Shown here: positions 30,865 through 32,216 of the stretch, one piece after another | How positions within the stretch are numbered: position 1 is the stretch's first letter | Layout: each line of letters begins with the position of its first letter | Assembly: GCA_963765765.1 (NCBI GenBank) | Contig: CAVXYC010000032.1 | Location: 64,001-128,000, forward strand | Reading direction: 5' to 3' | Length of the DNA: 64,000 bases | Source of the DNA: an uncultured Chloroflexia bacterium | GTDB taxonomy: Bacteria; Chloroflexota; UBA6077; JACCZL01 | Notes under the pieces: model-generated | The model's input: the letters and a program-made list of their open reading frames with translations, nothing else | Told to the model about the DNA's origin: nothing | The model's database searches: none | Made by a program: the position numbers and the translations under genes

Positions 30865-30889
30865 TGCTGGTAGCAACGGTCTTGGAATG

Positions 30890-31852
30890 TCAAGCTGGGG
30901 ATAACTTGGCAGCATTCCAATCCTGATTGGTGGCAATGAGGTGATTGAGGATGCGCAGCAGCTTGCCCATGCAGGCGGTGAGCGCCACCTTCGTCGGTTT
31001 CCCGGCAGTGCGCAGCCGCTGATAGAACGCGCGCAGCGCGGGGTTGTGCCGCACGCCGACCAGGGCGCCCATATACAGCGCGGCCCGGACATCGGCCCGC
31101 CCGCCCCAGATGCGGCGCCGGCCACGCATGGTCCCACTGTCGCGGCTATGCGGCGCCAGGCCCACCAGCGCGGTGATCTCTTTGCGGCCCAGTCGGCCCA
31201 GCTCCGGCAGGCGTGCCAGGAGGGTGGCCGCGATGGTGGGGCCGATGGCCGGCACCGTCCGGAGCCGCTGGGCCTTCCCGTGCCAGACCGGATCCTTGGC
31301 CACGCGCTCGGCCAGCTCTTTCTCGATCGCGGCCAGCTCCGCTTCGAGCCATTCCACGTGACGGGTGATGCCGGGGCGGACCACCGGATCCGCCTGCCGC
31401 AGGCGCTGCCGTTCGGCGACCAGCACGTCCCGCAATTGCCGACGTCGATCCACCAGCGCCTGCAGCGCCTGCGTGGCGGCGTCGAGCGGCGGACGCACCG
31501 CGGGCGCGACCGCCTCGGCAAAGTGCGCCAGCACGTGCGCATCGAGGGCGTCGGTCTTCGCCAGGCGACCGGTCGCGCGCGCGAAATCGCGCACCTGGCG
31601 CGGATTCACCACCGCGACGGGCAGTCCGGCCGCGGTGAGTGCCGTGGCCAGCGGCCGCTCGAGCCCACCGGTAGCTTCGAGCACGATGCGCTCGGGCACC
31701 AGCGGTCCCAGGGTGTCCACCAGGGCGGCGCACCCGTCGTCCGTATTGGGTACCGACCACCACTGGCCCGACGGACGGAGCGCGACGACCAGCTCCGCTT
31801 GGGCGACATCAATCCCCACGACGACTGGGGGTGCGGCGGACTCCGAGCTCAT
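30890..31852 (-). CDS. IS110 recombinase/transposase, 320 aa
   Basis: GAGGAGG RBS; DEDD RuvC-like motifs GIDVA, LEATG, KTDALDA; Tnp-domain serine in RDSGTMRG; no frameshift. Confidence 0.96.
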
Positions 31853-31884
31853 ACCACGCCTCCTCATGGCGACACTGGCAGTCG

Positions 31885-32075
31885 GCGACGGCGTCCCCAG
31901 GCCGGAACTTGCAGATACGGGCTGAGCGCCCCGGCAACAGTACAGGCTCACGGGACGACGGGCAGAGGTGAGGCCCAGGCTACAAAACGGTCTCACCGGA
32001 CCGAGTGCGGATCGGACTCTCACCTCCGGCCGACCGCGTTCCAGATGGGCTCGCTGGCCCCGCGGAGTTATCCCC
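31885..32075 (-). ncRNA. Bridge RNA (target-binding loop ~31965-32026, donor-binding loop ~31892-31957)
   Basis: Two stem/internal-loop/hairpin modules whose loop sequences match the reconstructed target and the donor junction (see findings); RNA ends approximate. Confidence 0.85.
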
Positions 32076-32130
32076 ACCCCGCGACGACGGCGACTTATCC
32101 CCATCTTTCACGCTTCGCGTTCAAGATACA

Positions 32131-32216
32131 AGTGCGGAATTCATTCCGCCGTCCCGATGTGATGTTGGAGAGAGGTTTTCGCTAGGTGACGGCGGACTGA
32201 ATCTCGAACTCCCAGC
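32131..32216. repeat. GTAG-type REP doublet (REPIN-like) interrupted by the IS110
   Basis: GT|AG-T-GCGGAAT-TC-ATTCCGC; degenerate inverted partner at 32188-32216, 24/29 identical to the reconstructed empty site. Confidence 0.75.

What the first reader, a model, noticed from the sequence alone, without database searches (positions are those of the whole stretch)
30872..32132. IS110 element encodes an RNA whose two loops spell its own target and donor: a bridge-RNA recombination system
Seen (minus-strand sense): the empty target is ..GAATTCCGCA-CT-ACCAGC.. and the circle junction is ..GACCGTTG-CT-TGTATCTT... Loop 1 of the upstream non-coding end reads GAGGUGAG-AGUCCG-[AUCCGCACU]-CGGUCCGGUGAGACCG-UUUU[GUAG]-CCUGGGC-CUCACCUC. 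Its left guide (32012-32004) matches the left target plus core at 8/9, and its right guide GUAG (31983-31980) is complementary to core+AC. Loop 2 reads GUCCC..GCCUGU-[ACUGUUGC]-CGGGGCGCUCAGCCCG-UAUC[UGCAAG]-..GGC..GGGAC. Its left guide (31941-31934) matches the donor ACCGTTGC with one G-U wobble, and its right guide (31913-31908) pairs with CTTGTA with one wobble. The recombinase is intact (DEDD plus DSG serine). Established: IS621 of the IS110 family uses a bispecific bridge RNA with a CT core and targets REPs. Inference: this is an orthologous, probably reprogrammable system with a different target specificity in a distant phylum.
Basis: partly seen in the sequence, partly recalled or inferred. 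Interest (0 to 1): 0.95.

Follow-up and report, generated by a model that had tools for sequence, protein, structure and literature searches.

The report
IS110 element with bridge RNA
This is a small jumping gene of the IS110 family whose own non-coding RNA spells out both its landing site (a REP-like repeat) and its own joined ends, a mechanism described in 2024, so it is a well-supported but ordinary new example.

Summary
Window 30874-32130 (minus strand) is a 1257-bp IS110-group insertion sequence, bounded by a CT core on each side. It has an intact 320-aa DEDD/Ser recombinase and a 278-nt left end.

A covariance model built only from 51 relatives in other genomes finds one match in the 64-kb window. 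It lies exactly on the proposed RNA (31897-32029, 75.2 bits, E 2.5e-14).

Across 51 distinct relatives, the two sides of loop 1 covary with the flanks of each insertion (0 of 10000 permutations for each side). Loop 2 follows the donor junction. A "handshake" base pairs with the target in 54 of 54 distinct elements.

One correction: the right target guide is 7 nt (UUUGUAG, 31986-31980), not 4.

Three of the four genomic copies sit at the same position of a GTAG-type REP-like repeat. A metagenome contig carries the empty site with a single CT.

RNA expression, circle formation and recombination activity were not shown. The host phylum was not determined.

This is a new member of a known kind (bridge RNAs, Durrant et al. 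2024). The same RNA model also hits ISMex17-family and enterobacterial plasmid elements. Earlier first-stage notes of this scan describe the same system on another copy of this genome.

The parts
30874..32130 (-). Whole IS110-group element, 1257 bp, without the flanking cores
   Evidence: The alignment of the four genomic copies loses identity exactly outside these ends. Lengths are 1252-1257 bp.
32131..32132 (-). CT core at the left (target/LE) junction
   Evidence: A CT is present in all 4 copies.
30872..30873 (-). CT core at the right (RE/target) junction
   Evidence: The empty-site contig has a single CT.
30890..31852 (-). Recombinase CDS of 320 aa plus stop, with catalytic residues D15, E59, D101, D104, S239
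   Evidence: Pfam DEDD_Tnp_IS110 E 9.4e-22 and Transposase_20 E 4.9e-18. Aligns to IS621 (8wt6, E 7.5e-41) with all five catalytic residues conserved. These residues are invariant in 29 relatives.
31897..32029 (-). Bridge RNA core (target-binding loop plus donor-binding loop)
   Evidence: Covariance model R1, built from 51 relatives and no sequence of this genome, gives 75.2 bits, E 2.5e-14, full length, and is the only match in the window. The structure is supported by covariation.
32004..32012 (-). Left target guide (LTG), AUCCGCACU
   Evidence: 8 of 9 identical to the left target plus core. The covarying positions -7 to -3 match 5 of 5 in three copies and 4 of 5 in the fourth. Family covariation.
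31980..31986 (-). Right target guide (RTG), UUUGUAG (reader gave only 31983-31980)
   Evidence: Its reverse complement is CTACAAA. The right flanks match 3, 5, 4 and 3 of 5 in copies C32, C30, C16 and C28. Family covariation extends over 5 nt plus core.
31979..31979 (-). TBL handshake base, C
   Evidence: It pairs with donor position 7 (G) in 54 of 54 distinct elements. The column is invariant.
31934..31941 (-). Left donor guide (LDG), ACUGUUGC
   Evidence: 7 of 8 identical to the RE end plus the first core base, and the eighth is a U.G wobble. Four of 7 non-consensus donor ends in relatives carry the same change in the guide.
31908..31913 (-). Right donor guide (RDG), UGCAAG
   Evidence: It pairs with CT-TGTA at the LE start with one G.T wobble.
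31907..31907 (-). DBL handshake base, U
   Evidence: It pairs with target position 7 (A of GCA-CT). The same column pairs with the target in 54 of 54 distinct elements (49 Watson-Crick, 5 wobble), 0 of 10000 permutations.
30888..30893 (-). -35-like TTGACA in the right end, overlapping the stop codon
   Evidence: Joined through the core it lies 18 nt from TATCTT. 65 of 71 elements have TTGA[CT], with a spacer of 17 nt in 58 and 18 nt in 6.
32123..32128 (-). -10-like TATCTT at the start of the left end
   Evidence: TATCTT is present in 52 of the 65 elements scored.
30880..30884 (-). Short sub-terminal inverted repeat, RE arm (CAAGA)
   Evidence: It pairs with TCTTG at 32122-32126. The G/C and C/G variants of the two arms are associated in 59 distinct elements (Fisher p 2.4e-4).
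32122..32126 (-). Short sub-terminal inverted repeat, LE arm (TCTTG)
32133..32153 (-). Left part of the interrupted REP-like target (GAC-GGCGGAAT-GA-ATTCCGC-A)
   Evidence: A 22-nt motif family with 31 matches at up to 4 substitutions in the genome and 0 in the reversed genome; 3 of them are occupied by the IS.
30866..30871 (-). Right target flank (ACCAGC)
   Evidence: It continues directly into the left flank in the empty-site contig of run X1.
32188..32216 (-). Degenerate inverted partner of the target REP
   Evidence: 24 of 29 identical to the computed empty site: 19 of 23 left of the junction and 5 of 6 right of it.

Best explanation
The stretch is an IS110-group insertion sequence that moves by bridge-RNA-guided recombination.

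Inferred from IS621 (steps not shown here):
- The element excises as a circle, and joining RE to LE through the CT core assembles a sigma-70-type promoter (TTGACA-18 nt-TATCTT).
- The left end is transcribed into an RNA of about 130-250 nt with two stem/internal-loop modules.
- A tetramer of the DEDD/Ser recombinase cuts after the CT core, exchanges top strands (helped by the two handshake bases), and resolves the Holliday junction.

Shown by sequence and covariation:
- Loop 1 reads the target. [quoted passage not shown]
- Loop 2 reads the element's own junction. ACUGUUGC pairs with the RE end plus C, and UGCAAG pairs with CT-TGTA.
- The natural target is the 3' arm of a GTAG-type REP-like palindrome that is present in about 30 copies in this genome.
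For: Protein:
- Both Pfam domains are present.
- All five catalytic residues align with IS621 D11/E60/D102/D105/S241 (residue roles from passages of PMC11208158).

Element:
- There are four copies with identical ends and CT on both sides.
- Two have intact ORFs and are 100% identical to each other over the aligned query in the own-genome search.
- A contig of metagenome run X1 runs from the right flank straight into 13 letters identical to window 32133-32145, which is the empty site with one CT.

RNA:
- On 56 left ends, 92.9% of cells pair, against 33.5-46.1% when partners are slid.
- 18 of 28 pairs carry compensatory changes, and 0 of 500 shuffles reach this.
- A leave-out covariance model finds the window RNA at E 2.5e-14.

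Guides, on 51 distinct guide pairs taken from 66 usable loci of 71:
- Left flank matches 4.47 of 7, against a null of 2.42.
- Right flank matches 4.51 of 5, against a null of 1.54.
- Both are reached by 0 of 10000 permutations.
- The handshake base pairs with target position 7 in 54 of 54, 0 of 10000.
- Four of 7 variant donor ends are mirrored in the LDG.

Other support:
- A second, 67%-identical element in the same genome (L005) has different guides that match its own different flanks.
- Target: 3 of 4 copies are at the same position of the REP-like motif, and the fourth is in a 4-of-5 / 3-of-5 look-alike.
- Architecture rules come from passages of PMC11208160.
Against: - No direct evidence of the RNA, the circle or recombination in this organism.
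- The minimum-free-energy fold of the left end is no more stable than shuffles (z -0.12).
- No Rfam family covers it. The only weak hit is on the opposite strand.
- The window copy's right flank matches the RTG at only 3 of 5 non-core positions.
- LTG position -9 mismatches. In the window element the LDG is followed by C where the second core base is T; the family consensus reads the same.
- The DBL handshake U could also wobble-pair with its own donor G. In IS621, pairing of a handshake guide with its own DNA reduced or blocked productive recombination.
- Among the 51 relatives, 7 match 2 or fewer of 7 on the left and 2 match 2 or fewer of 5 on the right. Some of these are one-base alignment shifts. 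One (L011) looks like a real exception.
- Two of the four copies are defective: C16 has a frameshift after about residue 216, and C28 has multiple frameshifts.
Confidence: 0.9

Rival explanations
1. The left-end structure is only a leader or regulatory RNA (for example translational control, or an antisense pair as annotated for sX15/asX7), and target choice is made by the protein.
For: An Rfam sRNA model (sX15) matches this region weakly on the opposite strand. The fold energy is not unusual.
Against: The unpaired loop positions, not the stems, track the flanking DNA of each insertion across 51 distinct elements. A single loop-2 base tracks target position 7. A leader RNA gives no reason for this.
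Confidence: 0.03
2. It is a true bridge-RNA element but a fossil. The copies in this genome no longer move.
For: Two of four copies carry frameshifts. The window copy's right flank has two mismatches to the RTG. No junction-spanning contig was seen.
Against: The window copy and the C30 copy each match the query at 100% identity in the own-genome search and have intact ORFs, which argues for recent movement. An empty allele of this very site exists in a soil metagenome. All catalytic residues and guides are intact.
Confidence: 0.15
3. It is an IS1111-group (seekRNA-type) element whose guide RNA lies downstream of the recombinase.
For: It has the same protein family. An 11-13-nt inverted repeat links RE (30892-30906) with LE (32066-32076 and 32095-32107).
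Against: The non-coding right end is only 16 nt beyond the stop, against a 278-nt left end. The structured, covarying RNA is upstream. The long inverted repeat is absent from the 70 relatives and from the RE of the second element.
Confidence: 0.01

Closest known systems
IS621 of Escherichia coli (IS110 group), the bridge RNA prototype (PMC11208160, PMC11208158; passages read)
   Same: - Recombinase fold and catalytic residues.
- RNA encoded in the left end, with a target loop followed by a donor loop.
- 9-nt LTG and 8-nt LDG, each including core bases.
- CT core, handshake bases, junction promoter and REP targeting.
- Even the CT-AC start of the right target is the same.
   Different: - Only distantly related in sequence (phmmer E 7.5e-41).
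- The RTG is 7 nt here, against 4 in IS621.
- Covariation on the left reaches only positions -7 to -1.
- The donor sequence differs (ACCGTTG-CT-TGTATC).
- The left end is 278 nt, with about 80 extra nucleotides 5' of the loops.
ISMex17-family elements (Methylorubrum plasmid) and an unnamed IS110-family element on enterobacterial plasmids
   Same: The same RNA model R1 hits directly upstream of their transposase genes at 80.4 and 62.5 bits. Protein identity is about 48-50%.
   Different: The guides differ. Their ends and targets were not analysed here.
The 70 relatives from genome contigs with both ends found (45 of the 80 fetched record titles read Dehalococcoidia by my count; also Gemmatimonadota, Nitrospirota, Acidobacteriota, Cyanobacteria and others)
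   Same: The ends are the same (..ACAGTTG-CT-TGTATCT..), as are the RNA architecture and the junction promoter. Protein identity is 52-61%.
   Different: Their left ends are about 160-270 nt, mostly around 195. Each has its own LTG and RTG and a matching target.
ISPpu10 / ISPpu9 of Pseudomonas putida (abstracts seen in the listing only)
   Same: They are IS110-family elements inserting into REP or a single conserved intergenic repeat.
   Different: Different host and sequence. Not compared here.
IS1111-group elements with seekRNA
   Same: The recombinase family and RNA-guided principle are the same.
   Different: Their RNA lies in the right end and they have long sub-terminal inverted repeats. 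Neither is the case here.

Membership tests
IS110 family, IS110 group, bridge-RNA system (IS621 type) | DEDD RuvC-like domain plus Tnp domain with a catalytic serine | tested here: met
   Pfam PF01548 and PF02371. D15/E59/D101/D104/S239 align with the IS621 catalytic residues (the chain numbering is offset by 2, which is my inference).
IS110 family, IS110 group, bridge-RNA system (IS621 type) | Long non-coding left end, short right end, no terminal inverted repeats | tested here: met
   LE is 278 nt and RE is 16 nt beyond the stop.
IS110 family, IS110 group, bridge-RNA system (IS621 type) | Core dinucleotide on both sides of the element and single at the empty site (scarless insertion) | tested here: met
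   CT flanks all 4 copies. There is one contig with the empty site, 13 letters past the junction. The inverted REP partner matches the computed empty site at 24 of 29.
IS110 family, IS110 group, bridge-RNA system (IS621 type) | Left-end RNA with two stem / internal-loop / hairpin modules | tested here: met
   Pair counts and controls. Leave-out covariance model hit at 75.2 bits.
IS110 family, IS110 group, bridge-RNA system (IS621 type) | In loop 1, the 5' side equals the top strand of left target plus core, and the 3' side complements core plus right target | tested here: met
   Window and its copies. Family permutation tests gave 0 of 10000 for each side.
IS110 family, IS110 group, bridge-RNA system (IS621 type) | Loop 2 matches the RE-core-LE donor junction in the same way | tested here: met
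   LDG matches 7 of 8 plus a wobble, and RDG 5 of 6 plus a wobble. Four of 7 variant donor ends are mirrored in the guide.
IS110 family, IS110 group, bridge-RNA system (IS621 type) | Handshake guides pair with the non-cognate DNA at position 7 | tested here: met
   54 of 54 for both loops. The DBL column covaries, 0 of 10000. Caveat: the window's U can also wobble with its own donor G.
IS110 family, IS110 group, bridge-RNA system (IS621 type) | Promoter reconstituted across the RE-LE junction | tested here: met
   This is a sequence-level result only. TTGACA-18-TATCTT in the window. 65 of 71 elements have the -35 box, with a 17-nt spacer in 58.
IS110 family, IS110 group, bridge-RNA system (IS621 type) | Short sub-terminal inverted repeat flanking the donor guides | tested here: met
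   CAAGA/TCTTG. The variants of the two arms are associated, Fisher p 2.4e-4 on 59 distinct elements.
IS110 family, IS110 group, bridge-RNA system (IS621 type) | The RNA is made, binds the recombinase, and is required for and redirects recombination; a circular intermediate exists | not testable with these tools
   The only data are contigs of an RNA library at about 97-98% identity covering 30871-31015, 31180-31336 and 31536-31983. This does not prove transcription.
IS1111 group (seekRNA) | Guide RNA in a long right end, with 7-17-bp sub-terminal inverted repeats | tested here: not met
   RE is 16 nt, and the RNA is in the LE.
REP (repetitive extragenic palindrome) as target | Multi-copy GTAG plus imperfect palindrome, often in inverted pairs | tested here: met
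   31 matches against 0 in the reversed genome. Seven inverted pairs lie about 20-40 nt apart, arm to arm. Whether each copy is intergenic was checked only for the window copy.

The most novel reading that the evidence does not exclude
The element may belong to a distinct bridge-RNA subfamily with three unreported aspects.
- It has a 5+2+5 covarying target code with a 7-nt RTG and a near-fixed donor ACAGTTG-CT-TGTATC. It ranges from Chloroflexota MAGs to enterobacterial plasmids.
- Its RNA may have been catalogued unknowingly, on the opposite strand, as Rfam sX15 (with asX7 of Xanthomonas as the real bridge RNA).
- In this genome's lineage it has gained an extra 5' left-end module of about 80-110 nt with GGGGATAA repeats, mirrored once in the right end. 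This might be an added binding or regulatory site, a step toward the long inverted repeats of IS1111 elements.
Probability: 0.15. Interest if true: 0.4.

Novelty: new member of a known kind. Interest (0 to 1): 0.3.

Why it matters
It adds one clean, internally consistent natural example of bridge-RNA targeting, with target, donor and handshake rules all readable from sequence.
- It gives a natural set of 51 guide/target pairs for this subfamily.
- It shows that the REP-like repeats of this genome are the landing pad.

For genome annotation, the 278 nt upstream of such transposase genes should be called a bridge RNA, and REP-like repeats explain where the copies sit. For tool development it is one more candidate orthologue among thousands already predicted. 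It changes no principle.

Tried and rejected
- Thermodynamic folding of the whole left end gave no signal (z -0.12). I therefore relied on comparative structure.
- Rfam has no bridge-RNA family. The only matches were sub-threshold: sX15 on the opposite strand and a microRNA model.
- RNAalifold on the MAFFT alignment found only 20 pairs and one shifted register. I replaced it with a hand-set structure and checked that with slid and shuffled controls.
- Laying contigs of three DNA runs and one RNA-library run showed no joint, so no circle junction was seen. Many bins had no cover. With contigs this says nothing about absence.
- The RNA-library contigs cannot show strand, ends or true transcription.
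- I tried to place the host taxonomically through a neighbouring CoA-transferase in the protein atlas. The nearest clusters were mixed Pseudomonadota and Acidobacteriota, so there is no answer.
- Three Y1_Tnp (PF01797) matches exist in the genome. I did not test whether any is a RAYT linked to the REP-like family.
- My first 5-mer comparison of the short inverted repeat was one base out of register (upper table). Only the 2x2 association in the same call is used.
- Rows dropped before counts, with relatives counted out of the 80 fetched loci (the 71 elements and 66 usable loci include the window's own element):
  - 8 of 80 relatives had no recognisable left-end start.
  - 2 of 80 had no right end.
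  - 5 of the remaining 71 were dropped (L058, L086, L079, L078 for gaps or short flanks; L019 because its loop 1 could not be aligned).
  - Identical guide pairs were collapsed from 66 to 51.
- Supplementary tables of the bridge-RNA papers were not available. They may already list this subfamily.
- No paper in the held library links sX15 or asX7 with IS110.
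Full report
**What is there**

On the minus strand, the window holds a 1257-bp element (30874-32130).
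- It has a 278-nt non-coding left end (LE).
- It has a 320-aa ORF (31852-30890).
- Only 16 nt follow the stop codon.

The protein carries both IS110-family Pfam domains: DEDD_Tnp_IS110 (E 9.4e-22) and Transposase_20 (E 4.9e-18).

Its best solved relatives are the ISCro4 and IS621 transposases (E 2.6e-41 and 7.5e-41). In the printed alignment, D15, E59, D101, D104 and S239 stand opposite the IS621 residues that the structure paper names as catalytic: D11, E60, D102, D105 and S241 (passages of PMC11208158). The deposited chain is numbered two higher, which is my reading. The same residues are invariant in an alignment of 29 relatives.

**Copies, ends and empty site**

The genome is 6.49 Mb in 33 contigs, with 61.2% GC. 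It holds four near-full-length copies, at 100, 100, 99 and 95% identity to the query.

In their alignment, identity begins right after a CT on the left and ends right before a CT on the right. The ORF status of each copy is:
- The window copy and the C30 copy have intact ORFs.
- C16 has a frameshift after about residue 216.
- C28 has several frameshifts.

Left flanks are TTCCGCA-CT in three copies and CTCCCCA-CT in the fourth. All four right flanks start with CT-AC.

A contig of soil-metagenome run X1 covers the right flank up to 30873. It then continues with 13 letters identical to window 32133-32145. That is the unoccupied site with a single CT.

A degenerate inverted partner of the target repeat (32188-32216) matches the computed empty site at 24 of 29 positions, including 5 of 6 beyond the junction.

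**The target is a REP-like repeat**

The 22-nt motif around the insertion point is a GTAG tetranucleotide plus a 7-bp palindrome when read from the other strand. It has 31 matches with up to four substitutions in the genome and none in the reversed genome. Three of these are the occupied sites. Seven lie in outward-facing inverted pairs about 20-40 nt apart, arm to arm. The element always sits after the CT of ..TCCGCA-CT-AC...

**The RNA**

Folding the left end alone is uninformative (z -0.12), and Rfam has no bridge-RNA family. I therefore fetched relatives:
- 7999 of the 8000 scored database proteins reach E 1e-20.
- A scan of one genome per species returned 546 relatives, of which the best 80 were kept, at 52-61% identity.
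- 72 of the 80 show the same left-end start (CT-TGTATCT, at most one mismatch).
- 70 of the 80 also show the right end (..ACAGTTG-CT).

An alignment of 56 non-redundant left ends supports two modules, each made of an outer stem, an internal loop and a capping hairpin:
- 92.9% of cells pair, against 33.5-46.1% when the 3' partners are slid by 1-3 columns.
- 18 of 28 pairs show compensatory changes.
- 0 of 500 shuffles reach any of the five measures.

Two closing pairs that I had added (59-80 and 148-185) are not supported, with 31 of 55 and 18 of 56 cells unpaired. They probably belong to the loops.

A covariance model built from 51 relatives, with nothing from this genome, finds exactly one match in the 64-kb window: 31897-32029 on the minus strand, full length, 75.2 bits, E 2.5e-14. 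It also finds the other three copies.

**Guides**

The model fixes the guide slots independently of the flanks. In the window they read as follows:

| Guide | Sequence | Coordinates |
|---|---|---|
| LTG | AUCCGCACU | 32012-32004 |
| RTG | UUUGUAG | 31986-31980 |
| LDG | ACUGUUGC | 31941-31934 |
| RDG | UGCAAG | 31913-31908 |

[quoted passage not shown] Each includes the core (passages of PMC11208160). That is exactly the pattern here.

Test across the family. Of 71 elements with both ends, 66 were usable, giving 51 distinct guide pairs:
- The left flank matches its own LTG at 4.47 of 7 non-core positions. Permuted pairings give 2.42.
- The right flank matches its own RTG at 4.51 of 5. Permuted pairings give 1.54.
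- Neither value was reached in 10000 permutations.

By position, the signal covers -7 to -3 on the left and +1 to +5 on the right (0.88-0.92 against 0.26-0.36).

The window's RTG complement, CTACAAA, matches the four right flanks at 3, 5, 4 and 3 of 5. The LTG matches at 5, 5, 5 and 4 of 5.

Exceptions exist. Seven of 51 match 2 or fewer of 7 on the left, and two match 2 or fewer of 5 on the right. Several are one-base alignment shifts. L011 appears to be a true mismatch.

**Donor loop, handshake, inverted repeat and promoter**

- Donor ends are nearly fixed in the family. Of the 7 distinct non-consensus right ends, 4 carry the identical change in the LDG. The window's C is answered by a wobble-compatible U.
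- The base after the RDG is the donor-loop handshake guide of the IS621 structure paper. It pairs with target position 7 in 54 of 54 distinct elements: 49 Watson-Crick and 5 wobble, 0 of 10000 permutations. This includes the rare A-T and U-A cases.
- The window has U (31907) opposite the A of GCA-CT.
- The target-loop handshake C (31979) pairs with donor G in 54 of 54, but that column never varies.
- The short inverted repeat CAAGA/TCTTG flanks the donor. Its variants are associated between the two arms (Fisher p 2.4e-4).
- Joining the ends places TTGACA 18 nt from TATCTT. 65 of 71 elements have the -35 box, with a 17-nt spacer in 58. This matches the junction promoter described for IS110 circles.

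**An internal control**

A second element in the same genome (contig C33, locus L005) is 67% identical in DNA. The model also hits it, at 66.7 bits. Its guides differ (UAAGGAUC.. and GGGAAG), and it sits in a different site, GAAGGAT-CT-TCCCC, which matches them.

**What was not shown**

There is no evidence here that the RNA is made, that circles form or that the element moves today.
- Contigs from an RNA library cover three parts of a copy at about 97-98% identity, including the donor loop. They cannot prove transcription.
- The host phylum was not determined.

**Comparison and novelty**

Every sequence-level defining feature of the IS621-type system is met. The IS1111 arrangement is not.

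Bridge RNAs were predicted in 85.7% of catalogued IS110 elements and in thousands of orthologues. The same RNA model hits upstream of an ISMex17-family transposase (80.4 bits) and of an IS110-family gene on an E. coli IncF plasmid (62.5 bits). This is therefore a new member of a known kind, not a new system or one peculiar to a distant phylum.

First-stage notes of this scan describe the same system on another copy of this genome and on this stretch. I tested their specific claims.

**Side observations**

- Rfam's sX15 model matches the bridge-RNA region at full model length and below threshold. The match is always on the strand opposite the recombinase: in the window (26.8 bits) and in 5 of 11 other loci searched, ten fetched relatives plus this genome's second element L005 (37.9-46.7 bits; cut-off 55).
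- The original paper reports sX15 and a complementary asX7 on a Xanthomonas plasmid, with ten homologues in Stenotrophomonas (passages of PMC3300014).
- No paper in the library links them with IS110.

Noticed in passing
window 31885-32042 (+); L025, L010, L088, L030, L042: Rfam sX15 (RF02234, Xanthomonadaceae sRNA) matches the bridge-RNA region at full model length. The match is always on the strand opposite the recombinase and below the gathering score: 26.8 bits in the window and 37.9-46.7 bits in 5 of 11 other loci searched (ten fetched relatives plus this genome's L005). The family looks like the reverse complement of an IS110 bridge RNA. The complementary asX7 of Xanthomonas would then be the real one (PMC3300014). 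No paper found links them.
   Followed up: partly
L005 (G000 contig C33), element about 1038-2320 of the locus: This is a second IS110-group element in the same genome, 67% identical in DNA. It has its own bridge RNA (66.7 bits), with guides that match its own different insertion site GAAGGAT-CT-TCCCC.
   Followed up: yes
window 32093-32102, 32066-32075 (minus strand) and 30897-30906 (plus strand): GGGGATAAGT and GGGGATAACT are repeated in the extra 5' part of the left end, with an inverted copy near the right end inside the last codons of the ORF (arms of 11-13 nt). Of 60 such motifs in the genome, 14 lie in the five IS copies. The motif is absent from the left ends of all 70 relatives. The second element has three copies in its LE and none in its RE. 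Function is unknown.
   Followed up: partly
G000, e.g. C7:105136-105201, C10:43665-43748, C14:364042-364125, C30:245077-245159: The REP-like target motif often occurs as outward-facing inverted pairs about 20-40 nt apart, arm to arm, which is a REPIN-like layout. The genome has three Y1_Tnp (PF01797) matches that could include a RAYT.
   Followed up: partly
L090 (Methylorubrum populi plasmid) 1052-1188; L091 (E. coli IncF plasmid) 1052-1185: The bridge-RNA model hits just upstream of annotated IS110-family transposase genes that carry no RNA annotation. 1183 plasmid records, mostly Klebsiella and Escherichia, hold a homologue of the recombinase.
   Followed up: partly
L010 about 1780-1830; L016: The left-end start motif occurs two or three times in tandem, 16-66 nt apart, upstream of the element. 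These may be remnants of earlier insertions or duplicated target/LE junctions.
   Followed up: no
L011 and L015 (same MAG, same element): The LTG ends in AU instead of CU. L015's left flank ends in AT and matches it, while L011's flanks match neither guide (1 of 7 and 2 of 6). This could be a core variant or an insertion made by another route.
   Followed up: no
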